64,000 nt of DNA from Pirellulales bacterium (GCA_041741015.1 JBGSKX010000136.1:5525-69524), one strand, 5' to 3'; positions 14,280 through 38,526 are shown, counted from the first letter of the stretch. The notes: generated from the letters alone by a model not told the origin. Numbers and translations are program-made.

Positions 14280-14395
14280 TGCCCCAAGTTTACATCGCGG
14301 CTGCGGGTCGATGTCACCATCTGAACACCTCGCATTATATCCGCGATGAACTTGCCCGGCCACCGGCGGCGCAAGCCTGCCAATGAGCTGATACC

Positions 14396-14935: not shown

Positions 14936-15199
14936 GGCACGGTGCTCCGTGAGAAGTGGCGCGAGCGGCGGGAAGGGGGGCGAAGAAAGTGCGGCTGCTG
15001 CCGGCGGACAGCTTGGGACAGGCGGGGTATGGCCAGAGCCGCTAGGACCGTGGCCTCAAGAATAGTCATCGGATGCCGCGCGACCGGAACTTTCCCTGGG
15101 GTACTCAGCGATTCCTTCAGCTTCCGGTTACTGGCCCTGCGAGGCTTTCCCAGCCGGCAAACTCGCGCGATAGCTGCTGTCGCTTTGGATTGGATGGTC

Positions 15200-15619
15200 T
15201 CAGTCGTTGCCCACGTCACGCCGCAGCTGCTTCTTCTTGGAGACGGCCTGCTTCGATTCGAGCCGCCGGGCGATGGCCCCCTTCGAGGGCTTGGTCGGTC
15301 GCCGCTTCTTGGGCGCAATGCTGACCCCTTCGAGCATCGCAATCAGCTTCTGTTTGACGTCCTCAATGTTCCGCCCCTGATCGCGATAGCGCTGGCTGCT
15401 CAGCACCAGGTCCCCTTCGGTCGTCAGCCGACTTGCGTAGCGCTGCTGAAACCTGGCGCGAATGTCAATTGGCAGGGCGCCGCTAGCCAAGGCGTGCCAC
15501 CGCAACACCGCTTTGCTGCTGACCTTATTTACGTTCTGCCCGCCGGGACCCGAACTGCGCACGAAACTCCACTCGAGCTCGGAGTCGGGAATTCGTATTC
15601 GTGAATTGACGATTAGCAT
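15200..15619 (-). CDS. arfB: alternative ribosome-rescue factor ArfB (peptidyl-tRNA hydrolase, YaeJ/ICT1 type)
   Basis: MLIVNSRIRIPDSELEWSFVRSSGPGGQNVNKVSSKA contains the GGQ motif. Basic C-terminal tail KKRRPTKPSKGAIARRLESKQ. Aligns to E. coli YaeJ. Confidence 0.85.
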   Translation of the reverse strand: MLIVNSRIRIPDSELEWSFVRSSGPGGQNVNKVSSKAVLRWHALASGALPIDIRARFQQRYASRLTTEGDLVLSSQRYRDQGRNIEDVKQKLIAMLEGVSIAPKKRRPTKPSKGAIARRLESKQAVSKKKQLRRDVGND

Positions 15620-15640
15620 CGCGGGACCGAGACTTATGCC

Positions 15641-17065
15641 ATGAATGCAACTACTCAAATCGTAGCCCGCCAGCCGCGGCAAGGGAATGCAGCTGCGCGA
15701 TGGCTTGCGCTGGTGGGTTTATTATTGCCGCTGTTTCCCAGCAATCAGGCCGGGGCGACCGATTGGCCGGCGTTTCTCGGTCCCACGGCTGACAGCAAGT
15801 CGCCCGAAGTCGGGATTCAGACAAAGTGGCCACCGCAGGGCCCGCCTCAAGTTTGGAAGTTGGAACTCGGCACCGGGTACGGCGCGCCGACGGTCGCTGC
15901 CGGACGGCTCTATCAGTTCGATCGCACGGATGATGATGCACGGCTGCGTGCCGTCAATGCCCGAACCGGCGCGCCGCTCTGGGAGTTCAAGTATCCGACC
16001 GAGTTCGAGGATCTGTACGGGTACGACAACGGCCCACGTTGCTCGCCGATCCTCGACGAGGGACGCGTCTATCTCTTTGGCGCCGAAGGGATGCTGCACT
16101 GTCTTGAGGCGACCAGTGGCAAGCTGATCTGGAAGGTCGACACGGCCGCGGAGTTCGGTGTCATTCAGAATTTTTTCGGTGTCGGAAGTTCGCCGGTCGT
16201 CGAGGGTGATCTGCTTATTGTACAAGTCGGCGGCAGTCCGCCTGACAGCAAGAACGTTCCGCCCGGACGCTTGGACCTGGTTGAGCCCAACGATTCGTGC
16301 GTGGTTGCATTTGACAAGCGCACCGGAAAGGTCCGCTACAAGCTCGGCGATGACCTGGCGAGTTATGCAGTGCCGAAGCTCGCGACAATCGCCGGCCGCC
16401 GCTGGTGCTTCGTGTTCGCGCGTGCCGGGCTGCTGGCATTTGACCCGGCGAGCGGCAAGATCGACTTTCATTTTCCGTGGCGAGCCAAGATTCTCGAAAG
16501 CGTCAACGCGAGCACCCCGGTGGTGGTTGGCAACCGCGTGCTGATCTCGGAAACGTACGGTCCCGGCGGCGTGCTGTTGGATGTCGCGGCCGGCAAGGAT
16601 CCGACCGTGGTCTGGTCGGACGAAGAACGCCGTCGTGACAAGTCATTGCAAACGCACTGGAACACGCCCGTGGAGCACGAGGGCTACGTCTACGCCTCCA
16701 GTGGCCGGCATACCGAGAATGCCGAACTCCGCTGCGTGAAACTTGCCACCGGCGAAGTCAAGTGGAGCGAACCGAACCTGACCAGGGCTTCGCTGATGTA
16801 TGTCGACGGGCACTTTGTCTGCCAGTCAGAAGACGGCACGCTGCGGCTCATTAAAGCCAATCCTCAGAAGTACGAACTCGTGGCCGAGACAGTGCTCGAA
16901 GACCGCCCTCGGACCGAGCCGAATCCGTTTGGCTTCCAGGCCCCCAAGCTGCTGCGGTATCCGGCCTGGGCCGCGCCGATCCTCGCGGACGGCCTGATGT
17001 ATGTTCGAGGGGCGGACCGGCTGGTCTGTTTGGAGTTGATCCCCAGGGGCCGGGGCGCACAATGA
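15641..17065 (+). CDS. PQQ-like beta-propeller repeat protein (BamB-like fold), secreted
   Basis: Signal peptide, then DWPAFLGP....W.....G.G.P.VAAGRLY and repeated G.L.C.....G...W blades. Confidence 0.7.
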
Positions 17066-17219
17066 ACAGGTGCGCCCTACCCTTTTGCTAGGCAGTGGAC
17101 CGATCAAGATCGGCCGTCACGCCGGGCGACGGGAAGCCCTGGGCTGGTCTTCGGAAAACGCTGCGTCGGGCGGCAGAAGCGTTTGCCGCTCGTTGTCCTC
17201 CGAAGGAGCATGTTCGAAC

Positions 17220-18614
17220 GTGGAAACGCAGCAGTATGATTTCGTGGTGATCGGCACCGGCCCCGGTGGTGAAGGTGCGGCGATGCGAGCCGCCAAGAAC
17301 GGCCTCCGCGTTGCGGCCGTCGAACGCTTCAAATCCGTCGGCGGCGGCTGCACGCACTGGGCCACTATTCCCAGCAAGGCCCTCAGGCAGGCGATCTATC
17401 ATGCCAACCTGTGTCACAACATTCGCATCGCCTCGAAGCTCGAGGCGACATCGCGATTCAGCTTTCCGGAGCTCCTGGCCACGGCTAACGCGGTGATTGC
17501 GAAGCAGGTCGACCTGCGCGAAGGCTTTTACGTCCGCAACGACGTCGACCTGATCCCCGGCGAGGCCCACTTTGTCGATCCGCACACGATCGAAGTTACG
17601 CATCCCGGCAGCATCGTCAAGCGAGTCTCGGCCAAGGCGTTCGTGATCGCCACAGGTTCGCGCCCCTATCGGCCGAAGGATGTCGACTTCACGCACCCGA
17701 ACATCTTCGACAGCGACACCCTGCTTTCGCTCAATCGCACGCCAGGCAGCATTGCGATCTATGGTGCCGGAGTGGTGGGCTGCGAGTACGCCTCGATGTG
17801 GCGCAACATGCAGGCGCGCGTGACCCTGATCAACACTCGCGATCGGTTGCTGTCGTTCTTGGACGACGAGATTGTCTCGGCATTGAGCTACCACCTCTCT
17901 GAGAACGGCGTGCGAATTCTGCAGAGCGAGGAATACGATCACGTCGAAGCCACGGACGAGGGCGTCATCATGCATCTCAAGAGCGGCAAGAAAGTTCGCT
18001 CCGAGATCCTGCTCTGGGCCAACGGCCGCAGTGGCAACACCGAACAGCTCAATCTCGAAGCGATCGACGTGAAGCCGAACCATCGTGGTCAGATCGAGGT
18101 CAACGAGCATTACCAGACTTCCCAGCCGCACATCTACGCGGTGGGCGACGTGGTCGGCTATCCTTCGCTGGCCAGCGCCTCTTACGATCAAGGGCGGTTC
18201 GCAGCCAGCCACTACTGCGGCGACGTGAACCACTACCTGGTCGAAAACATTCCCACGGGAATCTATACGAGTCCGGAGATCTCTTCGCTGGGAAAGACCG
18301 AACAGCAGCTGACAGAAGAGCGCGTGCCGTACGAAGTTGGCAAAGCACAGTTCAAGCATCTCGCGCGGGCGCAGATTACCGGCTCGACGGTCGGAATGTT
18401 GAAGCTGCTGTTCCACCGCGAGACGATGGCCCTGCTGGGCATACACTGCATTGGCCAGAACTCGGCCGAGATCGTGCACATCGGCCAGGCGATCATGGCC
18501 CAACCCGCACCGCACAACTCGATTGAGTATTTCACGAATACGACGTTCAACTATCCGACGATGGCGGAAGCGTATCGGGTGGCGGCACTGAACGGTCTGA
18601 ACCGTTTGTGTTGA
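17220..18614 (+). CDS. sthA: soluble pyridine nucleotide transhydrogenase SthA
   Basis: Near-colinear match to E. coli SthA ([56 protein letters not shown]). Start set at the in-frame GTG at 17220, which has a GAAGGAG SD about 12 nt upstream. The track ORF starts at 17070. Confidence 0.85.
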
Positions 18615-18642
18615 CGCTTGGCGGCTCGCCCGGCGCCGTCGG

Positions 18643-19452
18643 TTAGCAGGATGCCAGCAGCCGGTGAAAGGCGCACTTCGACTTCTGCAGCAGCTCGCAG
18701 TAGTCGCGATGCTCCACGGCTTCACCCATCAACTCAACATCGTAGTGCCCGCGATAACCGGCCCGATCCAGTCCGCGCACGATGTCGGTCCAGGGCAGGT
18801 TGCCCTCGCCCAGGCAGCAGCGATTCTGTTCGCGGTCGGGCGGAGCCAGACCATCTCCCAGGTGGACCACCGCAATGTGCGGCGCAAGGTCCGGCAAGCG
18901 CTCCAGAATGGCTGGATCGTGCCCCCAGTGATACGTGTCGAAGGCGAGCTTGATGCGCGGATGGCCAATTCCATCGACCAGCGCCAGAGCTTCGTCGAGG
19001 CCCGTCAGGATCGTCCACTCTCCCGCACAACCGGGGTGCATCGGCTCGACGGCCAGCACGACGTCGCGCTGTTCGCACTCAGGCAGGAGTTCACGGAGGG
19101 CCGTGGCGAACAACCGCCGGGCGTGGTTCTGCGTATGCCCGTTGCGGCCGCCGCTGTAGACGACCAGGCAATCGGCCTTGAGCGCACCGGCCAGACGAAT
19201 AGCCTCGCGCGCGTCATCGATGCTCTCGTCGTAGCTGTGGCCGTCGCTGCCAGTGAAACCACCGGCCCAGAGCAGGTTCGAAACTCTCAGGCCGGACTCG
19301 CGGAGCAGATCGATGCCGCGCAGTTCGCCGTAGTCCGCCAGTTTCTGCCGCCACACGCCGATCGCTTCGATGCCGGCCGCACGGTAGCGAGCGACATCCT
19401 GATCGAACGTCCAGCGATAGGTTGTAATCTCGTTGACCGAGAGGCCTGCCAT
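18643..19452 (-). CDS. sugar phosphate isomerase/epimerase (xylose isomerase-like TIM barrel)
   Basis: Length and motifs (LAVEPMHP, FDTYHW, HLGD) are typical of the AP_endonuc_2 / xylose-isomerase-like fold. Confidence 0.7.
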   Translation of the reverse strand: MAGLSVNEITTYRWTFDQDVARYRAAGIEAIGVWRQKLADYGELRGIDLLRESGLRVSNLLWAGGFTGSDGHSYDESIDDAREAIRLAGALKADCLVVYSGGRNGHTQNHARRLFATALRELLPECEQRDVVLAVEPMHPGCAGEWTILTGLDEALALVDGIGHPRIKLAFDTYHWGHDPAILERLPDLAPHIAVVHLGDGLAPPDREQNRCCLGEGNLPWTDIVRGLDRAGYRGHYDVELMGEAVEHRDYCELLQKSKCAFHRLLASC

Positions 19453-22959: not shown

Positions 22960-23937
22960 ATGATTACGCTGGTTACGGGCGCCACCGGCCTGGTCGGGAA
23001 CAACGTTGTGCGGCGTTTGGTTGCCCAGGGGCGCTTAGTGCGCGTTCTCGCAAGGGCCACCGCCGATTCACGCCCGCTGGCAGACTTGCCCCAAGTGGAG
23101 CGGTTTGAGGGGGATGTACGCGACGCAGTCGCGGTTCGCCGAGCCCTCGCCGGGGCATCCGCCGTCGTGCATGCCGCCGCCTCGGTTCACATTGGCTGGT
23201 CGGGTCTGGCCGAGGCGCAGGCCATTAATGTCGAAGGTACCCGAAATGTCGCCGAGGCAGCCCACGCAGTGGGCGCCCGCCTGGTCCATGTCTCGACCAT
23301 CGATGCTTTGGCCGTCTGGCGGGGTGGCGCCCCCGTGAATGAAGAAACGCCCATCGATGAAGGGATCCGCATTCCGTACGTCGTTACCAAGCGTGCCGCC
23401 GAGCAGGTGGTTCGCCGACTGGTCTCCCAGGGACTCTGGGCGGCAATCGTCAATCCTGGCTTCATGATTGGTCCGTACGACTGGAAGCCTTCGTCGGGAC
23501 AGATGCTGCTCTCGGTGGCTCGCGGTTGGGGCTTGTGGGTTCCGACCGGCGGGAACTGCTTCTGCGACGTCCGCGACGTGGCCGACGGCATCGTGTCCGC
23601 CCTTGAACGAGCACGGCCTGGCGAGCGCTATATCCTGGGCGGTCACATGCTCAGCTATCGTCAGGCCTGGCGGACCTTCGCTGAAGTCAGCGGTGGAACG
23701 CCGCCTGTATTTCCCATCGGTCCGCTGATTCGCTATGGCGCGGGTTACGTTGGCGACATTGTCGGCAAGCTCACCGGCCGCGAGCCGATCGTCAACAGCG
23801 CCGCCACGGCCATCGCCAGCCGCAAGCGCAACTTTTCCAGCGCGAAAGCCGAGTCAGAGCTGGGCTACAAAGTGCGCCCGCTGCGCGAGTCCGCCGCGGA
23901 CGCCTGGCAGTGGTTCCGCGAGAACGGTTACGTTTGA
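22960..23937 (+). CDS. extended SDR, NAD-dependent epimerase/dehydratase/reductase family
   Basis: GATGLVGNNVV Rossmann motif and a YVVTK catalytic Y-x3-K. Resembles dihydroflavonol reductase / HpnA-like enzymes. Confidence 0.8.
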   Translation: MITLVTGATGLVGNNVVRRLVAQGRLVRVLARATADSRPLADLPQVERFEGDVRDAVAVRRALAGASAVVHAAASVHIGWSGLAEAQAINVEGTRNVAEAAHAVGARLVHVSTIDALAVWRGGAPVNEETPIDEGIRIPYVVTKRAAEQVVRRLVSQGLWAAIVNPGFMIGPYDWKPSSGQMLLSVARGWGLWVPTGGNCFCDVRDVADGIVSALERARPGERYILGGHMLSYRQAWRTFAEVSGGTPPVFPIGPLIRYGAGYVGDIVGKLTGREPIVNSAATAIASRKRNFSSAKAESELGYKVRPLRESAADAWQWFRENGYV

Positions 23938-23962: not shown

Positions 23963-26900
23963 CTAGCGGGCTTCAGCGGGTGTCGAGGCCGCCGGCGAAT
24001 GGATGCCGTTGACGCTGACAATCCCCCGCAGGTATCGCGGGTCGATCTTGCGAAGTTCCTCGGCGACCGCGTTGACGGTGTCGCGAATCTGCCGCTCGCT
24101 ATGTTCCGAAGTGATAAAGAACCGCAAGCGGGCAGCTTTCTCCTCGACCGCGGGATGCAAAATCGGCTGCACGTTGATGCCACGATCGAACAGCGCCTGC
24201 GACAAGCGTAAGGAATCGAGCGAGTTGCCCAGGATCACCGGGATGATTGGCGTCCCCTCGCTGAGCCCCGTGTCGAGCCCCTTTTGTTTCGCCAGCTTGA
24301 GGAACAGGGCCGCTCGTTCGCGCAGCCGGGTCGAGCGTTCGGGCTCGGCCTGCAAAAGTCGCAAAGCAGCCAATGCCGCCGCGCAATTTTGCGGTGTCAT
24401 GCCCGCCGCGAACAGGAAACCGGGCGCTGTGTACTTCAGGTACTCAACCAGTGCGTGGGCGCCGGCGATATAGCCGCCGCAACTACCGAAAGCTTTGCTG
24501 AGCGTTCCCATCCAAATATCGACGTCGCGCGCATTGATTCCAAAGTGCTCGGCGATGCCACGTCCACGTTCGCCGAGGATGCCGGCCGAATGGGCTTCAT
24601 CGACGTAGAGCAGCGCGTGGTGCCGGTTCTTGACTTCGATGAACCGCGGCAGGTCGGCGATGTCGCCGTCCATGCTGTACACGCTTTCGATCGCAATCAC
24701 GACGCGACGGTAGGTCGGTCGCAGTTCCTCCAGCAGCTTGTCGAGCTCACGCCAATCATTGTGTGGGAACGAGCGGCGACGAGCGCCAGACAGGATCGAG
24801 CCCTGAATGATGCTATTGTGCGCGAGCGCGTCGTGCAGAATGAGGTCGCCCGGCCCAAACAGATGACCCAGTACCGTTTCGTTCGTGGCGTGACCGCCCA
24901 CCATCGCCAGGGCCGCGTCCACGCCAATAAAGTCGGCGAGCGCCTGTTCGAGTTCGCGATGGATCGGCTTCTCTCCCGAAACCAGCCGGCTGGCCGAAAC
25001 GCTGGTGCCATAGCGATCGACGGCACGTTTTACGGCGGCCACGACGCGCGGATCGCCCGACGTGCCAATGTAGTTGTAGCTGGAAAAACTGACCATCTCG
25101 CGGCCGTCGATCAGCGTGGTGTCGTTGATCACGCGTTCGTGGACCGTGAAAAACGGATTGCGATATCCGGCCGCGTAGGTCATTTCCATTTGAGTTCGCA
25201 GGCGGCGGTACTCAGGAAACTGGTCGAAACGATAGGTCTCGGGCGAAATCTCCGAGACGGCTTCGCGCGGCATCCGCTCTTGCGGCTTCTTGCCAAGGTA
25301 GGTTTCGACCGCGGCGGCCACTTCGCGAACCGTTTCGATCTGCGGCAGGACTTCCTCCGGAAACCGCCCGCCGTAGGTTTCTTCGAGCGAGGCCACGATT
25401 TCCATTCGTTCCAGCGAGTCCAGGCCGAGCTCGGGAATCGAAGCGTCCAGTGTCAATCCGACGGCACGCTCTTTGGCGACGCGCCTCACGTGCTCCATCA
25501 CAATTTCGACAGTGCTCATGTCGGCTTGTGTCCCCTCGGCCACCTTCTCCGCAGGTGGCGTTTGTGACGCTGGTTTCTTTTCGGCCGCCGGGGCTGCGGC
25601 CGGATTCGTCTTGGGAGCGGTGGACTGCGGGGCTAAGGTATTCGCCCAAATCTGCCACTGATAGACGGATTCCAGATTGCCCTGCAGGAACTCCTGTCGA
25701 CAGGCATGTCGCTGGATCTTGCCGCTGGACGTCTTGGGAATCGAACCCGCTTTCATTAGCACGACGGCATCCAGGTTGAGCTCGTGCTCGCCGGCGACTG
25801 CCTTGCGAATCGCGTCGACGACTTCTTGCAGGGAATCGGCCTGGCCACGTTCGATCTCCTGCACGAGGATCAACCGTTCCACGCCCTCGATCTCGCAGGC
25901 AAACGCTGCACCATTGGCCGGCCGCACGCGCGGGTGAGCCCGCTCGGCAGTGGCTTCAATGTCCTGCGGATAGTGATTCAATCCGCGAATGATGATCAGG
26001 TCTTTCAGCCGGCCCGTGACAAATAGTTCACCGTCCTGGATAAAGCCCAGGTCGCCCGTGCGCAAGAACGGACCTTCGCCCGTGTCTTTGAGATACGCCC
26101 GGAACGTCCGCTCCGTTTCCTCGGCACGATTCCAATAGCCCTGGGCGACGCTGGGCCCCGCGACCCAAATCTCGCCGATCTGATCCGGAGGCACGCTGGT
26201 CATGTTCTCGGGATGGGCAATCACGATCCGTTGATCCAGCAGCTTGCCGCCGCTGCCCACCATTTCGCGAGCGCCTTCCTCATCGGCCAGGGCGTCCACA
26301 ACCTGGTTATTCTCAAGCGCCTCGGCGTCGAACGTACGCACGACGGGGAGCGCCGCCTTGAAACCGCCCGTTACGATCAGCGTCGCCTCGGCCATGCCGT
26401 AGCAGGGATAGAACGCCGTGCGGCGGAAACCGCAGGGCTCGAACATCTTGGTAAATGCATCGAGCGTCTCGGCCCGAACCGGTTCGGCACCATTGAACGC
26501 GAGGTTCCAACTGCTCAGGTCGAGTTGCGCTCGCTGTTCGGGCGTGATCTTCCGCACGCACAAGTCATAAGCGAAGTTTGGTCCGCCGCTGATCGTGGCC
26601 CGGTAACGCGAAATTGCTTTCAGCCAGCGGAACGGTCGCTGCAAAAAGGCCATCGGGCTCATCAGCACGCTGGGCCGGCCGATGAACAGCGGCTGCAGAA
26701 TGCCCCCGATCAGGCCCATGTCGTGGTAGCTGGGCAGCCAGAACACGCCGCTGCCGCTGCGGGTGTGCTCGAAAGCGTAGGCGATCTGTGCCGAGTTGTG
26801 CATCAGGTTGGCGTGGGTCAGCATCACGCCCTTGGGCGTACCCGTCGAGCCGGACGTGTACTGCAGGAACGCCAGCGTGTCGCCATGCACGTCGGGCAGG

Positions 26901-27469
26901 CGCCAGTTGTTCTCCAGTCCCTCGGGCATCCGGTCCGTCGAGAGCCATTCGATCTTTTGCAGATCGGGCGTCTGATCGAGCACCGGCTGCACGCGTTCCC
27001 ACACGGCATAAGTCGTGAGCGCGATCCGCGCTTGCGCGTCATCGGCGATGGCTTGAATACGCGAGAGGGAACGATTGCGGCGCGGCGGATACGCCGGCAC
27101 GGCAACCACCCCGGCATACAAACAGCCGAAGAATGCGGCGATGAATTCCAGGCCAGCCGGATACAACAACAGCGCTCGTTCGCCTTCCAGACCTTGCTGT
27201 TGCAAGTGCGCGGCGATGGCGCGTGCCTGGCGATCGAGCTGTTGACACGTGTACTGAATTTCCTCAGTCTCGCCGTCGACAAGATAGATGAACGCCGAGG
27301 CGCTGGCAGAGTGCGCCGCGCGGTGTTGCAGCAAGTCAACGAGATTCGAGGGACCGAAGAACGATCCCGGCAGATGATCGAGATGCACGGCTACTTGTAA
27401 CTCATGTTGCGAGTGGCGGGTAATCGAGGCGCTCGGGCCGGCACGCGCAAGGTGCCTAGATGCTACCAT
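23963..27469 (-). CDS. tri-domain fatty acyl-AMP ligase - acyl carrier protein - alpha-oxoamine synthase (PLP) fusion
   Basis: FAAL motifs LQYTSGSTGTPKGVMLTHANL, GGPNFAYDLC, YGMAEATL, KTSSGKIQR. Carrier domain LGLDSLERMEI (Ser685, codon 25415-25417). AOS domain with GTLSKAFG (Lys992, codon 24494-24496) and YVDEAHS. Confidence 0.85.
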   Translation of the reverse strand: MVASRHLARAGPSASITRHSQHELQVAVHLDHLPGSFFGPSNLVDLLQHRAAHSASASAFIYLVDGETEEIQYTCQQLDRQARAIAAHLQQQGLEGERALLLYPAGLEFIAAFFGCLYAGVVAVPAYPPRRNRSLSRIQAIADDAQARIALTTYAVWERVQPVLDQTPDLQKIEWLSTDRMPEGLENNWRLPDVHGDTLAFLQYTSGSTGTPKGVMLTHANLMHNSAQIAYAFEHTRSGSGVFWLPSYHDMGLIGGILQPLFIGRPSVLMSPMAFLQRPFRWLKAISRYRATISGGPNFAYDLCVRKITPEQRAQLDLSSWNLAFNGAEPVRAETLDAFTKMFEPCGFRRTAFYPCYGMAEATLIVTGGFKAALPVVRTFDAEALENNQVVDALADEEGAREMVGSGGKLLDQRIVIAHPENMTSVPPDQIGEIWVAGPSVAQGYWNRAEETERTFRAYLKDTGEGPFLRTGDLGFIQDGELFVTGRLKDLIIIRGLNHYPQDIEATAERAHPRVRPANGAAFACEIEGVERLILVQEIERGQADSLQEVVDAIRKAVAGEHELNLDAVVLMKAGSIPKTSSGKIQRHACRQEFLQGNLESVYQWQIWANTLAPQSTAPKTNPAAAPAAEKKPASQTPPAEKVAEGTQADMSTVEIVMEHVRRVAKERAVGLTLDASIPELGLDSLERMEIVASLEETYGGRFPEEVLPQIETVREVAAAVETYLGKKPQERMPREAVSEISPETYRFDQFPEYRRLRTQMEMTYAAGYRNPFFTVHERVINDTTLIDGREMVSFSSYNYIGTSGDPRVVAAVKRAVDRYGTSVSASRLVSGEKPIHRELEQALADFIGVDAALAMVGGHATNETVLGHLFGPGDLILHDALAHNSIIQGSILSGARRRSFPHNDWRELDKLLEELRPTYRRVVIAIESVYSMDGDIADLPRFIEVKNRHHALLYVDEAHSAGILGERGRGIAEHFGINARDVDIWMGTLSKAFGSCGGYIAGAHALVEYLKYTAPGFLFAAGMTPQNCAAALAALRLLQAEPERSTRLRERAALFLKLAKQKGLDTGLSEGTPIIPVILGNSLDSLRLSQALFDRGINVQPILHPAVEEKAARLRFFITSEHSERQIRDTVNAVAEELRKIDPRYLRGIVSVNGIHSPAASTPAEAR

Positions 27470-27745: not shown

Positions 27746-27967
27746 TTAACTCCAATCCAGTCCCGTCATATGCCGAATTCGGTTGGCGTAATCCCCTAAC
27801 AGTCCCCCGATGATGCTCCACTCGCCGCGTTCGAGCACCTCGACATCTCCTTGCGGATTGATCCGCACTTGACTGTGCGCCGTCACGCCGGCTGATTTGA
27901 GACCTGCCAGTTCTTCTTCGCCCGCCAGTTTCAGCAGTGTTGCGCCGTCAATTTCAACGAATTTCAT
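27746..27967 (-). CDS. hypothetical small protein (73 aa)
   Basis: Intact ATG-initiated ORF with coding-like codon usage. No family recognised. Confidence 0.4.
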   Translation of the reverse strand: MKFVEIDGATLLKLAGEEELAGLKSAGVTAHSQVRINPQGDVEVLERGEWSIIGGLLGDYANRIRHMTGLDWS

Positions 27968-29672: not shown

Positions 29673-30638
29673 TCAGAAAATCGGGTCCTGCGATTGTTCG
29701 CGCAAGAACAGCCGATGCCAGGCATAGCGAATCGGCCCAACCAGGACAAACGCCGCACACAGCACGGGCACTGAGTAGCCGCGGAACGACATGATGAACA
29801 CGAACGCAAACACCAAAAGCACGACGTGGGCAAAACTGCGCTGGCCGCGGAACATCTGGTTCACGACATGCGGATAGGGAATTCGTGAGACCATCAACAA
29901 GGCCACCGCCAGGGCGAAAAACGGCAATCCCATCTGCACTGCCTGATCGATCTCTGCGGCGTAGATCAGCGGCGTACTGGACTGACGCAGCTCGTAGAAC
30001 AGGATTGCGAAGCCCGCGATGGAAGCTGCCGCCGCCGGCGAGGGGAGCCCACTGAAATTCAGATGGTCGTCGTCTTCACCTGTTTCGACGTTGAACCGCG
30101 CAAGCCGGAGCGCAGCGCAAGCCGCGAATGCCGCCGCAATGAGCCAAATTTTGTCGTGTGAATAGGTGAACGTCGGACACATTTTTACCAGCAAGAACCC
30201 GGGCGCAACGCCAAACGACACTACGTCGCAAAGGCTGTCGAGTTGCGCGCCAAAGTCCGTCGTCGAGCGCGCCAGCCGCGCGACGTGCCCATCAAGCGCG
30301 TCGAACACCATTGCCAGAAAGATCAACCAGCCGCTCAGCATCACGTTGTGCGTGTCGTTCGTGGGATCCAGCTGCTTCATGAACGAACGGGGACTCGAAA
30401 ACGAGATCTTGTCGACCGCCGCAGGTGGATCGAGCGAAGTCGGTCGTTCGACGCGGGCGGCCACGACAATCGCAAAGAACCCGCAGATCAGGTTCGCGAG
30501 CGTGAACATCGTTGGAAAGACTGCGACCGTGCGGATTCGACCCATGTTGGGCCTCGACTTCCAGAATCGTTTGGCAACTGGTTCGAGAGGAAGCGGTTTC
30601 TGTGCGCCGCGTCGCGACCGGTAACGTTCAAACGGCAT
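29673..30638 (-). CDS. pssA: CDP-diacylglycerol--serine O-phosphatidyltransferase
   Basis: CDP-alcohol phosphatidyltransferase motif DALDGHVARLARSTTDFGAQLDSLCD. Multiple TM segments. Start is uncertain: the ATG at 30638 overlaps the psd 3' end by 11 nt, and there is an alternative ATG at 30545. Confidence 0.8.
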   Translation of the reverse strand: MPFERYRSRRGAQKPLPLEPVAKRFWKSRPNMGRIRTVAVFPTMFTLANLICGFFAIVVAARVERPTSLDPPAAVDKISFSSPRSFMKQLDPTNDTHNVMLSGWLIFLAMVFDALDGHVARLARSTTDFGAQLDSLCDVVSFGVAPGFLLVKMCPTFTYSHDKIWLIAAAFAACAALRLARFNVETGEDDDHLNFSGLPSPAAAASIAGFAILFYELRQSSTPLIYAAEIDQAVQMGLPFFALAVALLMVSRIPYPHVVNQMFRGQRSFAHVVLLVFAFVFIMSFRGYSVPVLCAAFVLVGPIRYAWHRLFLREQSQDPIF

Positions 30639-31740
30639 CGACACTTGCACCCGGGAGGCGAACCATGACCGTGCTCCCTCCCTTAACTTTATCACCGATC
30701 TGGGCCACGATCTCGAGCCCGGGCTCATCCGGTAGCAGCAGTTCCGTCCGAGAGCCGAGTTTGATCATACCGAATTTGTGGCCGCGGGCGATTACTTCGC
30801 CACTTCGCAAGTTGCAAACGATGCGGCGGGCCAAAAGTCCGGCAATTTGGCGGACAATCAGCCGGCGGTGCGGGGCCGCCTCTTCTTCCAGGCCGATCCA
30901 GAGATTCTCGTTTCGAATGGCGCTTTCTGGTTTGAGTGCATTCAGAAACAAGCCTGGGTTGTACACCAGCCGGATGACGCGCGACTTCACCGGGGCGCGG
31001 TTGATGTGCACATTGAACACCGACAGAAAGATGCCCAGCCGCAGGGCCGGCCCGCCGATGAATTCGTCGTGTTCCACGCGAGAGATCTCAACCAGCACGC
31101 CGTCAGCGGGCGAGACCACCAGGCCCGGGTCGCTGGGTACCCGGCGGGGCGGGTCGCGAAAGAAATACAACACGAACAGAAACAGCACGGCCGGCACGAT
31201 CGCCAGGCTCCAGTGAAACCAGGCGCCGACGACCGCCAGCAAGACCAGCGGATAGCCCATAATCTGGACTTCAGCCAGCCCCCAGCGGGCCAGCGGCAGC
31301 CGATCGCGCCAGCGGAACGGATCGTCCACGGCGGCCCAATCGCAGGTAACCCGGTTGCGGCAGTATTTCAAATCGCGTGGATCGAGAATCTCATGAGGAG
31401 CGCCCTCATCCGAGCCGCGCCGAAGCCCGGCCATACGTGCCACGTATCCCTGGCGAAACGTACGCAGAAACCACCGCCGCCAGCGCCCCCAGGCAAGCTC
31501 CATCTGGTAGCAAACACCGCTTCCCGGCTGCACGCTCGAAAGGTTCTCGGGCAGCGGTTCGGGCGGAAGGCGATGGGGTGGCGAATCGAGCTGGGACATG
31601 CTGGACGCAGGCAAAGGGCCGGTGACTTCGAGCCAACGGTGCATCGTATCCGGTCCGGCGCTGGTTGAGAAGGATTGCCGGTGACTTGGTGTGTCGGACC
31701 GTCGAAGCAGTGCCCGCAGGGTGGTATAATCCCGGTACAA
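30628..31740 (-). CDS. psd: phosphatidylserine decarboxylase family protein (short Asd/Psd type with N-terminal extension)
   Basis: FFRDP..R, NVHINRAP and the self-cleavage-type MIKLGSRTE motif. Start is uncertain: TTG at 31740, or ATGs at 31644, 31599, 31503, 31260. Confidence 0.75.
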   Translation of the reverse strand: MYRDYTTLRALLRRSDTPSHRQSFSTSAGPDTMHRWLEVTGPLPASSMSQLDSPPHRLPPEPLPENLSSVQPGSGVCYQMELAWGRWRRWFLRTFRQGYVARMAGLRRGSDEGAPHEILDPRDLKYCRNRVTCDWAAVDDPFRWRDRLPLARWGLAEVQIMGYPLVLLAVVGAWFHWSLAIVPAVLFLFVLYFFRDPPRRVPSDPGLVVSPADGVLVEISRVEHDEFIGGPALRLGIFLSVFNVHINRAPVKSRVIRLVYNPGLFLNALKPESAIRNENLWIGLEEEAAPHRRLIVRQIAGLLARRIVCNLRSGEVIARGHKFGMIKLGSRTELLLPDEPGLEIVAQIGDKVKGGSTVMVRLPGASVDAV

Positions 31741-33536: not shown

Positions 33537-33623
33537 CCGATTCCCACGCTGACTTGGCTTCCGCTTATAATCGACCGGAGCAAGGCCTGCTTCTTTACTG
33601 TCGCATCGGGCAAGTTGTCACGC

Positions 33624-36113
33624 ATGAACCGCCATCACTTCGCGAAAGCATGTACGGTTCGTGCGCTGGGCGGCACCTCTCTGCTGGCATTACTGCTTGT
33701 CACCAGCGGCTGCTGGAATTCCGCGACAAGCCAGCAGACGGCTGAAAAGCTCAAGGACAAGAAACCTGAGCGGCCGTTTGAAGAGATGCGCGTATTCACC
33801 GAGCCCAACGAGCGCTCGACTTTTGACGTGAATTCGAAAGATGAGCAGCGTATCAATCTCGCTGGCAAGCCAGGGCATTGGGCCGGCGTGCTGGTCCAGG
33901 GGCGGGCCAATCTGTTTGACTTCGACGGCACGCTCGTCACCACGCCGCAAGACGCGCAGCAGCGCCCCGCCGATCTGGAGCGTAATCCCTTTTGGGCAAC
34001 GACGGTCCGCGCGGCAAGTCTTCCCAAGGAACAGCGGAAGACCTTCGAAACGCTCTTCTTTCCGCCCCGGCCCAAACCGAACGCCACGATCACCGGCTCT
34101 ACCTGGATTGCCACGACGCTCGAGGGGCGCGGAGGTGGAACGCAGCTCGAACATGTGCCCGAGATCATGCAGCACATGCCGAGCTTCCAGTATTTTATGC
34201 TCGTGCTCTTGCCACAGTCGGCACGATATCGCTGGCTGATCGATTCGTCGACGGTGCACCCGCCCACCGTGCACTCCCCTGCCAACCCTCTCGACACGTT
34301 CAATTATCGCGTCCTCTTTCCACCGCTCGACAAGCCGCTGGCACTCCCGTCGCAGATGGTCGGTTGGACCAGCACCGCCTACGTGATCTGGGACGGAGCC
34401 CTGCCCTCGTTGCTCTCGCCCGAGCATCAGCAGGCAATTGTCGATTGGATTCATTGGGGCGGCGGATTGGTGATCAGCGGTCCGGACTCGCTCGATACGC
34501 TGAAGGGCTCGTTCCTTGAACCCTATCTGCCCGCGACCGGTGGCGCGGCCGGTCCACTCGACGAGGCGAAGCTCGCCGAACTGCATACGGCCTGGACGAT
34601 CGAGGGCGACCAGAGCAAACCCCTCGGAAGTCGTGCCGATGCTCCCTGGTCGGGCATCGAGCTCGTGAAGCATTCCCGGGCCGAATACTTGCCGAACACC
34701 GCCGGACTGGCGATCGAGCGTCGGGTCGGTCGAGGCCGAATTGTCGTCACGGCATTTCGACTCACGGAACTCGACCTGGTGAATTGGCCCAGCTTTGACG
34801 GTTTTTTCAATGCCTGCCTGCTGGGCCGCCTTCCGCGTCATTTCGAGGAGAATCAGCCACGGTTCCGCTTCGTCAGTTCAAGTGGCGGCGACGATGATCT
34901 CGACGAATACGATCCGGAACTCTCGACCGGAGTGCGCATTCTGACGCGTGATGAACGCGACCCGCAGGCACCTCGTTTTTCTCAGATGTCGTCCGAGGAT
35001 CCTGACCTGTGGACCACCTACGCCGGAACAGACCCGATTCAGCAGCTCAAGGCCGAGCCTGGCACGGCAGGCTGGAACGATTTCAGTTGGTTGTCGGACG
35101 GCGCTCGTTCGTCGCTGCAAAGTGCGGCGGGCATTTCGGTTCCACGACGCGAGTTCGTGCTGAAGATGGTCGGCATCTACCTGATCGTTGTCGTGCTCTT
35201 GAACTGGGTCATCTTTCGCCTCATTGGCCGACTGGAGTGGGCCTGGATCGCCGTGCCGCTGGTGGCCATCGTGTGGGGCGTGTTGGTGATCTGGCTCGCC
35301 CAGCTCGATATTGGCTTTGCCCGCGCGCAGACTGAGATCGACGTGCTCGAGATTCAGCCGGACTACACGCGAGCGCATTTGACTCGCTACACGGCACTCT
35401 ACACATCGCTCTCGAGCGACTACGAACTCAAACTCAACGACCCCTCGGCCGTGGCGCTCCCCTTCTCTTCCGATCGTGAGCGGCTCACCGGGCAGTCGTC
35501 CGCGGAAGTCACGCTCTCGACCGTCGGCGATCGCGAGCTGCGCGGCTTCTCGGTCGCGTCGAATTCGACGGGCATGGTCCACGGCGAGCAGATGTTCTCG
35601 CTTGGAGGTCAATTGCAGTGCACGGTTTCTGACGCGGGGCAGCTGACCGTCGAGAACCGGACCGGCATCCCGCTTGCCGGAGCGGCGGTCATCCGCCGCC
35701 GCGAGGATGGCACACGTCAAATCAATGAAACCGCCTGGCTCGGAACGATCGAGGCCGGCGCAACGGCAACCGGCAAGTTCACCCGACGCGACGAGGAGTT
35801 GCATGCGAAGCTCCGCGATCGGGAAACTCTCACGACGCCGGTCGAAGAGGCCAGCGGGCAGTTGAACGTGCGAACGCTCATAGATCGGGCGGAAGATCAC
35901 AGGGTGCTTGCCGCCGGAGAGGTCCGGCTCGTGGCCTGGTACGACGGCATTCTAGGCAACCAGCAGGTTTCGCCCCCGGCGGCCCAGCGCCGCGGGGCGA
36001 CCGTCGTGGTTGCGCACCTGAAATATGCCCGGGCGAGCAGTCCCGCGCGCGACATCAACTTGCGACCGATTCGCCGTAACCCCTTCCAATCGCCCGGCAC
36101 GTTCACCCCGTAA
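33624..36113 (+). CDS. large membrane-anchored lipoprotein-like protein of unknown function
   Basis: Lipobox-like LLLVTSGC. Segment YVIWDGALPSLLSPEHQQAIVDWIHWGGGLVISGPDSL is reminiscent of class-I GATase-like (DUF1355/DUF4159-type) modules. Two TM helices around residues 515-570. Confidence 0.55.
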   Translation: MNRHHFAKACTVRALGGTSLLALLLVTSGCWNSATSQQTAEKLKDKKPERPFEEMRVFTEPNERSTFDVNSKDEQRINLAGKPGHWAGVLVQGRANLFDFDGTLVTTPQDAQQRPADLERNPFWATTVRAASLPKEQRKTFETLFFPPRPKPNATITGSTWIATTLEGRGGGTQLEHVPEIMQHMPSFQYFMLVLLPQSARYRWLIDSSTVHPPTVHSPANPLDTFNYRVLFPPLDKPLALPSQMVGWTSTAYVIWDGALPSLLSPEHQQAIVDWIHWGGGLVISGPDSLDTLKGSFLEPYLPATGGAAGPLDEAKLAELHTAWTIEGDQSKPLGSRADAPWSGIELVKHSRAEYLPNTAGLAIERRVGRGRIVVTAFRLTELDLVNWPSFDGFFNACLLGRLPRHFEENQPRFRFVSSSGGDDDLDEYDPELSTGVRILTRDERDPQAPRFSQMSSEDPDLWTTYAGTDPIQQLKAEPGTAGWNDFSWLSDGARSSLQSAAGISVPRREFVLKMVGIYLIVVVLLNWVIFRLIGRLEWAWIAVPLVAIVWGVLVIWLAQLDIGFARAQTEIDVLEIQPDYTRAHLTRYTALYTSLSSDYELKLNDPSAVALPFSSDRERLTGQSSAEVTLSTVGDRELRGFSVASNSTGMVHGEQMFSLGGQLQCTVSDAGQLTVENRTGIPLAGAAVIRRREDGTRQINETAWLGTIEAGATATGKFTRRDEELHAKLRDRETLTTPVEEASGQLNVRTLIDRAEDHRVLAAGEVRLVAWYDGILGNQQVSPPAAQRRGATVVVAHLKYARASSPARDINLRPIRRNPFQSPGTFTP

Positions 36114-38524: not shown

Positions 38525-38526
38525 AC

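What the first reader, a model, noticed from the sequence alone, without database searches (positions are those of the whole stretch)
23963..27469. Self-contained FAAL - carrier protein - alpha-oxoamine synthase megasynthase
Seen in sequence: one uninterrupted 1168-codon ORF joins three domains. (i) A fatty acyl-AMP ligase-type adenylation domain at about residues 40-600, with motifs LQYTSGSTGTPKGVMLTHANL, GGPNFAYDLC, YGMAEATL and KTSSGKIQR. (ii) A Pro/Ala/Lys-rich linker and a carrier domain with the phosphopantetheine-type serine in LGLDSLERMEI (Ser685). (iii) A PLP-dependent alpha-oxoamine synthase domain of the BioF/SPT/KBL/ALAS/CqsA family, with the Schiff-base lysine in GTLSKAFG (Lys992) and YVDEAHS. 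Established knowledge: FAALs load free fatty acids onto carrier proteins without CoA. AOS enzymes condense an amino acid with an acyl thioester by decarboxylative Claisen chemistry, as in serine palmitoyltransferase, the cysteate acyltransferase of sulfonolipids, CqsA/LqsA autoinducer synthases, and the terminal domain of SxtA. Inference: this single protein should convert a fatty acid plus an amino acid into a long-chain alpha-amino ketone, such as a 3-ketosphinganine-like base, an aminolipid precursor or an alpha-hydroxyketone-type signal. No bioA/bioD/bioB genes are nearby, which argues against a plain BioF role. The amino-acid substrate and the product are unknown.
Basis: partly seen in the sequence, partly recalled or inferred. 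Interest (0 to 1): 0.7.

Follow-up and report, generated by a model that had tools for sequence, protein, structure and literature searches.

The report
Fused fatty-acid-loading amino-ketone lipid synthase
A planctomycete gene encodes one protein that should activate a long-chain fatty acid, hold it on a built-in carrier and join it to an amino acid, most likely serine; it belongs to a widespread, untested family whose relatives in other phyla sit inside sphingolipid-type gene clusters.

Summary
It carries a FAAL-type adenylation domain, a carrier domain and an alpha-oxoamine synthase (AOS) domain. Every quoted motif is present. Ser685 and Lys992 are invariant in 155 homologues. The real start is probably the GTG at codon 28 (27388), giving 1141 aa.

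The fusion is not an artefact. More than 150 independent assemblies encode the same architecture, mostly Pirellulales. Others are Legionella, Nostocales, Gemmatimonadota, Desulfobacterota and Acidobacteria.

The FAAL domain is 54% identical to the Synechococcus olefin-synthase FAAL, which was crystallised with stearoyl- and palmitoyl-AMP. The AOS domains form their own clade (200/200 bootstraps). They lie outside the SPT, KBL and BioF references and below every NCBIfam cut-off. No bio genes lie in the 64 kb.

Relatives 48-63% identical in the AOS domain sit beside ketoreductases, a GNAT-like acyltransferase, PAP2_3 proteins and a sphingolipid delta-4 desaturase.

Best reading: a single-polypeptide, CoA-independent counterpart of the AasR/AcpR/Spt system that makes a 3-ketosphinganine-like base. 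The amino acid is not proven.

The architecture was catalogued in 2013 without a function. I rate it a new variant of a known kind, of moderate interest.

The parts
23963..27469 (-). Longest ORF of the FAAL-ACP-AOS synthase (1168 codons plus TAG stop at 23963-23965)
27386..27388 (-). Probable true start codon (GTG, codon 28), giving an 1141-aa protein that begins (M)HLDHLPG
   Evidence: Homologues start here. In L010, L086, L004 and L006 the frame is closed 0-1 codons upstream. P0001 (99% identical) has 1141 aa.
25652..27349 (-). FAAL-type adenylation domain (residues about 41-606), with motifs YTSGSTGTPKG, YGMAEAT, TGDLG, GRLKD and SSGK
   Evidence: Pfam AMP-binding and DIP2-like C-terminal domain. 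NCBIfam FAAL subfamilies score best. PDB 7r7e/f/g Ols FAAL: E 1e-196, 54% identity, TM 0.91. The motifs are invariant or nearly so (a few single-sequence exceptions) in 155 homologues.
26258..26374 (-). Region of the FAAL-specific insertion (residues about 366-404, between YGMAEAT and GSGGKLL)
   Evidence: About 26 residues here have no counterpart in E. coli FadD. The model shows strand 376-381, helix 382-386 and strand 400-406; residues 357-372 have low confidence.
25523..25651 (-). Pro/Ala/Lys-rich flexible linker (residues about 607-649)
   Evidence: Sequence; pLDDT below 50 for 601-648; poorly conserved in the family consensus.
25295..25522 (-). Carrier (PP-binding) domain, residues about 650-725; phosphopantetheine serine Ser685 at 25415-25417
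   Evidence: Pfam PP-binding 41.4 bits, cut-off 20.8. D684 is present in 154/155 and S685 in 155/155 homologues. Codon checked.
24035..25222 (-). PLP-dependent alpha-oxoamine synthase domain, residues about 750-1145. Lys992 (24494-24496), His884, Asp957 and His960 are invariant; Arg1116 is present in 154 of 155.
   Evidence: Pfam Aminotran_1_2. Best solved relatives are the S. multivorum SPT 3a2b and ThAOS 7poa. Residue conservation. Clade analysis.
22960..23937 (+). Convergent neighbour 25 nt from the stop: extended-SDR oxidoreductase (HpnA-like). A possible but unproven ketoreductase partner.
   Evidence: Pfam Epimerase and 3Beta_HSD. NCBIfam HpnA 249 bits, below the cut-off of 367. Adjacent only in the closest relatives L035 and L085. 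Only 23-29% identical to the extended-SDR group linked to the synthase in other phyla.
27746..27967 (-). Conserved 73-aa ORF upstream on the same strand; no known family. It stays next to the synthase in part of the Pirellulales.
   Evidence: tblastn hits at 36-66% identity in 13 loci, 12 of them distinct from the window's own syntenic copy (L085). Where the distance was computed it lies 270-1034 nt upstream on the same strand in 10 loci. It is also next to the synthase in L086, where ksgA is absent. No Pfam or NCBIfam match.

Best explanation
The gene encodes a single-polypeptide, CoA-independent long-chain-base synthase. AOS enzymes are obligate dimers, so it presumably works as a homodimer.

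Step 1 (inferred from strong homology): the N-terminal FAAL domain uses ATP to turn a free long-chain fatty acid, about C16-C18, into an acyl-adenylate.

Step 2 (inferred): the acyl group moves to the phosphopantetheine arm on Ser685 of the built-in carrier domain. That arm must be installed by a phosphopantetheinyl transferase encoded elsewhere.

Step 3 (inferred from conserved catalytic residues): the C-terminal PLP domain, with its Schiff base on Lys992, binds an amino acid. It carries out a decarboxylative Claisen condensation with the tethered acyl thioester and releases a long-chain 2-amino-3-ketone.

The amino acid is most likely L-serine, which would give a 3-ketosphinganine-like base. 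This rests on gene context in relatives, not on any direct test.

Functionally the protein is the fused counterpart of the three separate proteins AasR (acyl-ACP synthetase), AcpR (carrier) and Spt of Caulobacter-type bacteria. It is built from a different adenylating enzyme (FAAL) and a distinct AOS clade. Later steps (keto reduction, N-acylation, head groups) are encoded next to the gene in other phyla. In Pirellulales they are not conserved beside it.
For: Architecture and catalytic residues. Ser685, Lys992, His884, Asp957 and His960 are invariant in 155 homologues, and Arg1116 is present in 154.

FAAL identity and chain length:
- The domain is 54% identical to the Synechococcus olefin-synthase FAAL, solved with stearoyl- and palmitoyl-adenylate, with TM 0.91.
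- All top 30 structural hits are FAALs.
- About 26 inserted residues lie at the FAAL-insertion site relative to E. coli FadD.

Not an artefact: at least 120 full-length three-domain proteins at 64-99% identity, and 69 full-length loci across phyla.

Not BioF/KBL/ALAS/CqsA: every NCBIfam equivalog is below its cut-off. The fused-family AOS clade appears in 200/200 bootstraps and excludes the five references used, namely BioF, Kbl, ThAOS and the two SPTs. No bio genes lie in the window.

Sphingoid inference, from relatives 48-63% identical in the AOS domain:
- Three Legionella species carry a GNAT-like acyltransferase, PAP2_3, CDP-alcohol phosphatidyltransferase, fatty-acid hydroxylase, SDR, a Lipid_DES/FA_desaturase sphingolipid delta-4 desaturase and GT2.
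- Gemmatimonadota carry an overlapping extended SDR, PAP2_3, GNAT-like and GT4 genes.
- A delta-proteobacterial MAG (L103) has the GNAT-like gene and an extended SDR; a Syntrophobacteraceae MAG (L105) has the extended SDR but a radical-SAM protein in place of the GNAT-like gene; a beta-proteobacterial MAG has the GNAT-like gene.
- Phycisphaeraceae have an extended SDR.
- Two Nostocales have an overlapping classical SDR.
- This mirrors the Spt, ceramide synthase and reductase triad described for bacteria (PMC11087976) and the ACP-dependent Spt of PMC9386255.
Against: No biochemical data exist for any family member in the literature I could search.

The AOS domain is not inside the clade of characterised SPTs. 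It misses all SPT equivalog cut-offs (312/640, 275/500, 234/670).

The domain also has its own signature at active-site-proximal positions. These are GGH(A/S)TNE for (S/T)G(F/Y)xxN, HNS for HAS, APGF for xRPx, and a terminal Gly for Ser in F(S/A)xG. Those changes could reflect ACP docking or a different amino acid.

In the window itself there is no GNAT-like, PAP2_3 or classical SDR partner. The adjacent SDR belongs to a different subfamily from the one linked to the synthase elsewhere.

The one Pirellulales lipidome I read, Lacipirellula parvula, reports only phospholipids, hydroxy fatty acids and a C31:9 alkene, and no sphingolipid (PMC6995999).
Confidence: 0.55

Rival explanations
1. Same three-step chemistry but a different amino acid, such as alanine, glycine or a larger or charged one. 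The product would then be a 1-deoxy-type base, another amino-lipid precursor or a diffusible alpha-amino/hydroxy-ketone signal (CqsA/LqsA-like), not a sphingolipid backbone, at least in Pirellulales.
For: The family is a separate AOS clade with altered residues near the active site. No ceramide-type partners are conserved beside the gene in Pirellulales. No sphingolipid was reported in a cultured Pirellulales lipidome. S. multivorum SPT itself accepts Ala, Gly and homoserine (PMC10196870).
Against: Family members 48-63% identical lie in clusters with a sphingolipid delta-4 desaturase, PAP2_3, GNAT-like and ketoreductase genes. The CqsA equivalog scores far lower than SPT, KBL or BioF (160 bits against a cut-off of 428).
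Confidence: 0.3
2. It is the loading and termination part of a larger polyketide or natural-product pathway, as the AOS domains of RedL, PigH, SxtA or Fum8 are. The product would be a specialised metabolite, not a membrane lipid.
For: In Desulfobacterota relatives the gene is followed by a radical-SAM/SPASM protein, an ABC-2 exporter and a 2243-aa KS-AT-ACP-KR-DH synthase. The 2013 catalogue groups A-CP-AOS proteins with PKS-type assemblies.
Against: In the window and in Pirellulales loci no KS, AT, C or TE genes flank it. The gene lies in conserved housekeeping synteny (ribE-ksgA upstream, a BBP7 porin downstream), which suggests vertical inheritance rather than a mobile cluster.
Confidence: 0.1
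3. It is an unusual biotin enzyme: a BioF that receives pimelate through its own ligase and carrier.
For: JGI names many homologues '8-amino-7-oxononanoate synthase'. bioF TIGR00858 is the highest-scoring AOS model in bits (346).
Against: The score is below the curated cut-off of 426. The domain is only 27% identical to E. coli BioF, against 33-36% to SPT, KBL and ThAOS. No bioA/B/D genes lie in 64 kb. The adenylation domain matches long-chain FAALs solved with C16/C18 adenylates. Relatives sit in lipid clusters, not bio clusters.
Confidence: 0.03
4. The fusion is an assembly or frameshift artefact of separate genes.
For: None found.
Against: The same uninterrupted architecture appears in more than 150 proteins from independent isolates and MAGs in several phyla, with all catalytic residues conserved across all three domains.
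Confidence: 0.01

Closest known systems
AasR / AcpR / Spt system of Caulobacter and other Rhodobacteria (Padilla-Gomez et al. 2022, PMC9386255)
   Same: The logic is the same. A free fatty acid is activated with ATP, loaded on a dedicated carrier protein, and the acyl-carrier thioester is condensed with an amino acid by a PLP-dependent AOS enzyme. In several phyla the family co-occurs with an N-acyltransferase and a reductase, as Spt does with bCerS and CerR.
   Different: Here the three activities are one polypeptide. The adenylating part is a FAAL, with its insertion and closest to Ols, FadD32 and FAAL28, rather than an AasR-type acyl-ACP synthetase. The AOS part is a separate clade that fails the alpha- and beta-proteobacterial SPT models. 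I did not compare it directly with AasR, AcpR or Caulobacter Spt sequences.
A-CP-PLP2 (AOS) proteins catalogued by Milano et al. 2013 (PMC3870968): Blastopirellula marina A3ZWL3, Microscilla marina A1ZVW4, Synechococcus PCC 7002 B1XHP8
   Same: Identical domain order. The catalogue includes a planctomycete protein, and it also found S. multivorum SPT 3A2B to be the closest template, at 42% for the Synechococcus protein.
   Different: That work was purely bioinformatic and assigned no substrate, product or gene context. It reports Ser272 of 3A2B as conserved; in this family that position is Ser or Ala, about half each, and it is Ala in the window.
Serine palmitoyltransferase of Sphingobacterium multivorum (PDB 3A2B, 8GUH) and Sphingomonas (2X8U, 2JG2)
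   Same: These are the best solved relatives of the AOS domain (E 7e-69, about 35% identity). His138, Asp210, His213, Thr241, Ser243, Lys244 and the C-terminal Arg all have equivalents. The loop PxxxPAVxxxxxxxRF matches without gaps.
   Different: They are stand-alone enzymes that use acyl-CoA or a free ACP. The window domain lies outside their clade and differs at Phe114 (His), Ala139 (Asn), Ser273 (Ala) and Ser275 (Gly) in 8GUH numbering.
FAAL-ACP loading didomain of the Synechococcus olefin synthase Ols (PDB 7R7E/F/G)
   Same: 54% identity and TM 0.91 over the whole FAAL domain. It is likewise followed by a carrier domain, and it was crystallised with C16/C18 acyl-adenylates.
   Different: Ols passes the acyl group to a ketosynthase module that makes a terminal olefin. 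Here the acceptor is a PLP-dependent condensing domain.
AOS domains embedded in assembly lines (RedL A-ACP-KS-AT-ACP-AOS, PigH ACP-ACP-AOS, SxtA, Fum8)
   Same: A carrier-tethered acyl group is condensed with an amino acid by a C-terminal AOS domain. This comparison rests on my own knowledge plus the listing in PMC3870968.
   Different: Those proteins contain or follow KS/AT extension modules and make pigments or toxins. This protein has no extension module. None of these sequences was available for a direct comparison.

Membership tests
Fatty acyl-AMP ligase (FAAL) branch of the ANL adenylating superfamily | Core adenylation motifs (A3 YTSGSTGxPKG, A5 YGxAE, A7 TGD, A8 GRxKD, A10 SSGK) | tested here: met
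   All are present and invariant or nearly so (a few single-sequence exceptions) in 155 homologues. Pfam AMP-binding 228 bits.
Fatty acyl-AMP ligase (FAAL) branch of the ANL adenylating superfamily | FAAL-specific insertion of about 20 residues in the N-terminal domain before the hinge | tested here: met
   About 26 residues between YGMAEAT and GSGGKLL have no counterpart in E. coli FadD. The whole domain superposes on the Ols FAAL with TM 0.91, and the top 30 Foldseek hits are all FAALs. Caveat: part of the segment (357-372) has pLDDT below 50.
Fatty acyl-AMP ligase (FAAL) branch of the ANL adenylating superfamily | Transfers to a carrier protein and does not make acyl-CoA | not testable with these tools
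   Only indirect support: a carrier domain follows in the same chain.
Acyl/peptidyl carrier protein (PP-binding) | Four-helix domain with a (D/N)S(L/I) phosphopantetheine site | tested here: met
   PF00550 scores 41.4 bits against a cut-off of 20.8. D684 is present in 154/155 and S685 in 155/155. Helices are predicted at 653-669, 685-699 and 714-725. Actual modification is not testable here.
Alpha-oxoamine synthase (PLP fold-type I, CoA-dependent acyltransferase subfamily) | Schiff-base Lys in a T-x-S-K motif, a stacking His, an Asp to the pyridine N, a His to O3' and a carboxylate-binding Arg | tested here: met
   K992, T989, S991, H884, D957 and H960 are invariant in 155 sequences and R1116 is present in 154. 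They align to K244, T241, S243, H138, D210 and H213 of S. multivorum SPT.
Serine palmitoyltransferase (bacterial SPT) | Reaches the curated SPT equivalog scores or groups with characterised SPTs | tested here: not met
   NF047600 312/640, NF047599 275/500 and NF047603 234/670. The fused family is a separate clade in 200/200 bootstraps. Its position relative to Sphingomonas SPT is unresolved, at 51%. The tree was NJ with only five reference sequences.
Serine palmitoyltransferase (bacterial SPT) | Genomic association with ceramide synthase, reductase or other sphingolipid genes | tested here: inconclusive
   Met for relatives (Legionella x3, Gemmatimonadota, Desulfobacterota, a beta-proteobacterial MAG, Nostocales, Phycisphaeraceae). 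In the window there is only a non-orthologous HpnA-like SDR next door, with no GNAT-like or PAP2_3 gene.
Serine palmitoyltransferase (bacterial SPT) | Uses L-serine and yields 3-ketodihydrosphingosine | not testable with these tools
   Requires an enzyme assay.
8-amino-7-oxononanoate synthase (BioF) | Reaches the TIGR00858 cut-off or groups with BioF | tested here: not met
   346 bits against a cut-off of 426. 27% identity to E. coli BioF, the most distant of the five references.
8-amino-7-oxononanoate synthase (BioF) | Lies in a biotin gene neighbourhood (bioA, bioB, bioD, bioW/C/H) | tested here: not met
   None found among the window's ORFs or in relatives' loci.
AasR/AcpR/Spt three-protein ACP-dependent system | Three separate polypeptides with an AasR-type acyl-ACP synthetase | tested here: not met
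   The window has one polypeptide with a FAAL-type adenylation domain. It works like that system but is not a member. No direct sequence comparison with AasR or AcpR was made.

The most novel reading that the evidence does not exclude
Pirellulales planctomycetes, together with members of Legionella, Nostocales, Acidobacteria, Gemmatimonadota and Desulfobacterota, make sphingoid-type long-chain bases by a previously uncharacterised route. That route is a single polypeptide that takes free fatty acid directly, without CoA, through a FAAL and a built-in carrier to a distinct clade of PLP condensing enzyme. In Pirellulales the gene is vertically inherited and has no linked ceramide synthase. The product there could be a free amino-ketone or amino-alcohol lipid, or a new amino-lipid class that standard lipid surveys have overlooked. 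The conserved 73-aa upstream ORF could be a dedicated partner.
Probability: 0.3. Interest if true: 0.7.

Novelty: new variant of a known kind. Interest (0 to 1): 0.5.

Why it matters
Bacterial sphingolipid producers are currently found by searching for stand-alone Spt together with bCerS and CerR. A fused FAAL-ACP-AOS clade that fails the SPT models would be missed or mislabelled; databases call it '8-amino-7-oxononanoate synthase' or a generic aminotransferase.

If the family makes long-chain bases, three things follow.
- The list of likely sphingolipid or amino-lipid producers grows to include a whole order of planctomycetes, several Legionella species, cyanobacteria, Acidobacteria and sulfate-reducer lineages.
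- It shows a CoA-independent entry of free fatty acids into this chemistry.
- It provides a compact one-protein catalyst, needing only fatty acid, amino acid and ATP, that could be used to make amino-ketone lipids.

It also offers a testable explanation for environmental sphingolipid and 1-deoxy-sphingolipid signals whose producers are unknown.

Tried and rejected
**Literature**
- Seven full-text searches combined FAAL or acyl-AMP ligase with oxoamine synthase, SPT, sphingolipid or the Pfam domain names.
- They returned nothing on a characterised FAAL-ACP-AOS. The only relevant hits were the 2013 catalogue and the AasR/AcpR/Spt paper.
- A search for ceramides in cultured Pirellulales found none reported.

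**Partner search in Pirellulales**
- Clustering of neighbours in 36 and then 62 loci found no conserved enzyme partner in Pirellulales. It showed only synteny (ribE, ksgA, a BBP7 porin) and a 73-aa ORF.

**The adjacent SDR as the ketoreductase**
- I could not support this. The SDR is adjacent only in the nearest relatives.
- It is only 23-29% identical to the extended-SDR group that travels with the synthase elsewhere.

**The GNAT-like 376-aa neighbour family**
- It has no NCBIfam model and no solved relative, and only a weak Pfam GNAT hit (E 7e-4).
- Calling it a ceramide synthase is therefore an inference.

**Other checks**
- Rfam found no RNA element anywhere in the window, and the promoter and terminator scans were at background.
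- The AlphaFold model is of only moderate quality (pLDDT 69, pTM 0.47). I used the domains for fold matching but did not interpret inter-domain packing or pocket geometry.
- I considered predicting amino-acid specificity from active-site residues. I rejected this because even solved SPT recognises the serine hydroxyl mostly through waters and the PLP phosphate.

Full report
**Observation**

The ORF list shows a single 1168-codon frame at 23963..27469 on the minus strand. The plus-strand translation of the same coordinates is full of stops.

Pfam finds four domains:
- AMP-binding at 48-446 (228 bits);
- the DIP2-like C-terminal adenylation subdomain at 490-601;
- PP-binding at 657-721 (41 bits, cut-off 20.8);
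- Aminotran_1_2 at 791-1134 (155 bits).

Codon positions were checked directly. Ser685 is at 25415-25417, Lys992 at 24494-24496, and the stop is TAG at 23963-23965.

The window is 60-64% G+C. It carries planctomycete hallmark families (BBP7 porin, DUF1501, PSCyt2/PSD1), so the host is a planctomycete. A 99%-identical, fully syntenic locus exists in assembly GCA_022844125.1.

**Start codon**

The consensus of 36 homologues begins MHLDHLPG, which corresponds to codon 28 of the window ORF. In relatives L010, L086, L004 and L006 the reading frame is closed 0-1 codons upstream of that motif. The 99%-identical database protein has 1141 aa, and residues 1-40 of the model have pLDDT below 50. The true start is therefore most likely the GTG at 27386-27388.

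**Is the fusion real?**

A search of the large protein collection returned at least 120 full-length proteins (about 976-1196 aa) with the same precomputed domains, at 64-99% identity. Most come from Pirellulales or Planctomycetota isolates and MAGs.

Two scans of species-representative genomes added full-length members from other groups:
- Nostoc and other Nostocales;
- three Legionella species;
- Gemmatimonadota;
- Acidobacteria (Pyrinomonadaceae, Blastocatellia);
- many Desulfobacterota;
- a beta-proteobacterial MAG;
- Phycisphaeraceae.

In an alignment of 155 members the adenylation motifs are invariant or nearly so. The carrier Ser685, the PLP Lys992, His884, Asp957 and His960 are present in 155 of 155, and Arg1116 in 154.

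**Adenylation domain**

By sequence, the best solved relatives are the FAAL domain of the Synechococcus olefin synthase (7R7E/F/G, E 1e-196), a Legionella FAAL, FadD32, FadD23, E. coli FAAL and FAAL28.

An AlphaFold model built on 36 sequences is of moderate quality (pLDDT 69, pTM 0.47). Its N-terminal half superposes on the Ols FAAL with TM 0.91 at 54% identity. That structure was solved with stearoyl- and palmitoyl-adenylate. All top 30 Foldseek hits are FAALs.

Aligned with the E. coli acyl-CoA ligase FadD, the window protein has about 26 extra residues between YGMAEAT and GSGGKLL. This is the position of the FAAL-specific insertion. I conclude it is a long-chain FAAL. Its inability to use CoA is inferred, not shown.

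**Condensing domain**

The closest solved proteins are the S. multivorum SPT (3A2B/8GUH, E 7e-69) and Thermus ThAOS (7POA), followed by Sphingomonas SPT, plant and human SPT subunits, ALAS and KBL, with BioF further down.

Residues that hold PLP and the substrate carboxylate in S. multivorum SPT are His138, Asp210, His213, Thr241, Ser243 and Lys244 (PMC10196870). All have identical counterparts here.

No curated NCBIfam equivalog is reached:

| Model | Score | Cut-off |
|---|---|---|
| bioF | 346 | 426 |
| SPT (three models) | 312, 275, 234 | 640, 500, 670 |
| KBL | 300 | 460 |
| ALAS | 267 | 338 |
| CqsA-type | 160 | 428 |

I built a neighbour-joining tree of 41 AOS domains over 395 columns. 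The references were E. coli BioF and Kbl, taken from the genome record, plus the two SPTs and ThAOS from the PDB alignments. The fused family forms one clade in 200 of 200 bootstraps and excludes all five references. The window domain is 27% identical to BioF and 32-36% to the others.

The family also has its own signature:
- GGH(A/S)TNE where classical enzymes have (S/T)G(F/Y)xxN;
- HNS for HAS after the stacking histidine;
- APGF for xRPx;
- Gly for the last Ser of the F(S/T)xS phosphate-binding motif.

So the domain does not nest inside BioF, and it is not a member of the characterised SPT clade either.

**Gene context: window and Pirellulales**

The gene sits downstream of psd, pssA, ribE, ksgA and a 73-aa ORF on the same strand. 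It converges on an extended-SDR gene 25 nt away, and a BBP7 porin gene lies beyond that.

Across Pirellulales loci the recurring neighbours are only ribE-ksgA, the porin and the small ORF. No enzyme partner is conserved. This pattern fits a vertically inherited, stand-alone gene. None of the ORFs scanned in the 64 kb is a biotin gene.

**Gene context: other phyla**

Outside Pirellulales the picture is much more informative.
- **Legionella.** In L. resiliens, L. bozemanae and L. gratiana the homologue is flanked by a 376-aa GNAT-like protein, a small ACP, a PAP2_3 protein, a CDP-alcohol phosphatidyltransferase, a fatty-acid hydroxylase and a classical SDR. The flank also holds a protein with Lipid_DES plus FA_desaturase domains (a sphingolipid delta-4 desaturase) and glycosyltransferases.
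- **Gemmatimonadota.** An extended SDR overlaps the start of the synthase. PAP2_3, the GNAT-like protein and a GT4 follow.
- **Delta-proteobacterial MAG L103.** This locus has the GNAT-like gene and the extended SDR.
- **Syntrophobacteraceae MAG L105.** This locus has the extended SDR, but the 376-aa ORF beside it is a radical-SAM protein, not the GNAT-like family.
- **Beta-proteobacterial MAG.** This locus has the GNAT-like gene.
- **Phycisphaeraceae contig.** This locus has the extended SDR.
- **Nostocales.** In two genomes a classical SDR overlaps the 3' end of the synthase.

The extended SDRs of five of these loci form a genuine orthologous group, with 30-57% identity and E values from 1e-31 to 1e-144. 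The GNAT-like proteins are 25-37% identical across phyla, with E values from 1e-39 to 1e-83.

This is the same trio of activities described for bacterial ceramide synthesis: a condensing enzyme, an N-acyltransferase and an NDUFA9-like reductase (PMC11087976). The AOS domains of these context-rich members are 48-63% identical to the window's and belong to the same fully supported clade. By bracketing, the most economical reading is that the whole clade makes a long-chain base.

**Mechanism**

The proposed steps are fatty-acid adenylation, thioesterification on the phosphopantetheinyl Ser685, and PLP-dependent decarboxylative Claisen condensation with an amino acid, which releases a 2-amino-3-ketone. 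Each step follows from conserved residues and from established knowledge of FAALs, carrier proteins and AOS enzymes. None is shown experimentally.

The system works like the AasR-AcpR-Spt system, in which Spt uses an acyl group carried by a dedicated ACP loaded by a dedicated synthetase (PMC9386255). It is not a member of that system, because it is a single chain with a FAAL and a different AOS clade.

Serine is the favoured amino acid only because of the context evidence. I give about 0.9 to the general chemistry and about 0.55 to the full statement including a sphingoid-type product.

**Evidence against the sphingoid reading**
- The clade's altered active-site surroundings could mean a different amino acid.
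- The window has none of the GNAT-like, PAP2_3 or classical SDR partners.
- The neighbouring SDR is HpnA-like (249 bits, below cut-off). It is only 23-29% identical to the SDR group that accompanies the synthase elsewhere, and it is adjacent only in the closest relatives.
- The intact polar lipids reported for the cultured Pirellulales Lacipirellula parvula include no sphingolipid.
- In Desulfobacterota the gene lies beside a radical-SAM protein, an exporter and a large KS-AT-ACP-KR-DH synthase. That hints at a specialised product in that lineage.

**Prior knowledge and novelty**

Milano et al. (2013) listed A-CP-AOS proteins from Blastopirellula marina, Microscilla marina and Synechococcus PCC 7002. 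They modelled one on SPT 3A2B at 42% identity and assigned no function. A Black Sea metagenome study counted 138 Planctomycetota MAGs with 'Spt-like' proteins but did not discuss fusions. I found no biochemical or genetic study of the family.

The architecture is therefore known as a catalogue entry. The functional reading and the cross-phylum cluster evidence assembled here are not in the literature I could search. I rate it a new variant of a known kind, with interest 0.5. It is a solid, widespread, mis-annotated and directly testable enzyme family, but its chemistry is an expected recombination of well-understood parts.

Noticed in passing
window 27746-27967 (-): A 73-aa ORF with no Pfam or NCBIfam match is conserved at 36-66% identity. 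It stays next to the synthase in 13 Pirellulales-type loci (12 besides the window's own syntenic copy L085), usually 270-1034 nt upstream on the same strand. This includes a genome (L086) where the ksgA neighbour is absent. It may be a small partner or regulator.
   Followed up: partly
window 27386-27469 (-): The first 27 codons of the longest ORF are not conserved. In relatives the frame is closed just upstream of VHLDHLPG, so the real start is probably the GTG at 27388.
   Followed up: yes
L045 (Legionella resiliens NZ_JAJTND010000004.1) 4100-19220; also L088 (L. bozemanae) and L089 (L. gratiana): What looks like a complete sphingolipid-type cluster in Legionella. It comprises a GNAT-like acyltransferase, ACP, FAAL-ACP-AOS, PAP2_3, CDP-alcohol phosphatidyltransferase, fatty-acid hydroxylase, SDR, a Lipid_DES/FA_desaturase (sphingolipid delta-4 desaturase), GT2, GT4s and a Stealth protein.
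   Followed up: partly
L027, L096, L099, L100, L101, L104, L112 (Desulfobacterota MAGs), downstream of the synthase: In sulfate-reducer lineages the synthase is followed by a radical-SAM/SPASM protein, an ABC-2 exporter pair and a 2243-aa KS-AT-ACP-KR-DH synthase with an N-terminal NMO-like domain. This suggests a different, more elaborate product there.
   Followed up: partly
L043 (Limnothrix) 9949-13302 and L052 (Bacteroidetes MAG) 8384-11824: These two FAAL-ACP-AOS proteins have AOS domains that fall outside the fused-family clade. They sit nearer S. multivorum SPT and carry classical SPT-type motifs, and each has a classical SDR gene downstream (17 nt in L043, about 1.2 kb in L052). The same three-domain fusion therefore seems to have arisen more than once.
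   Followed up: partly
window 22960-23937 (+): An extended-SDR gene converges on the synthase with a 25-nt gap. It is HpnA-like (249 bits, cut-off 367), with a weaker match to the sterol demethylase protein SdmB; its closest solved relative is 3WJ7. Its substrate is unknown, and its link to the synthase is limited to the closest relatives.
   Followed up: partly
window 29673-31740 (-): A pssA-like CDP-alcohol phosphatidyltransferase and a phosphatidylserine decarboxylase (phosphatidylethanolamine synthesis) lie just upstream on the same strand, followed by ribE and ksgA. The longest ORFs overlap by about 100 nt, so at least one start is over-called; the syntenic record and 290 aa.
   Followed up: no
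L012, L013, L050, L053: immediately downstream of the synthase, same strand: A conserved ORF of about 157-194 aa, with no Pfam match, follows the synthase in four planctomycete loci. In Pirellulaceae loci (L020, L021, L024, L029) an Asn_synthase-like gene lies divergently about 380 nt upstream.
   Followed up: no
window, whole 64 kb: There are no Rfam matches at gathering thresholds, so no tRNA, rRNA or riboswitch. There are four DUF1501 genes and a PSCyt2/PSD1 gene, and an HlyD-AcrB efflux pair at 37232-41832. The 832-aa ORF at 33615-36113 and ORFs at 55956-57752 match no family.
   Followed up: no
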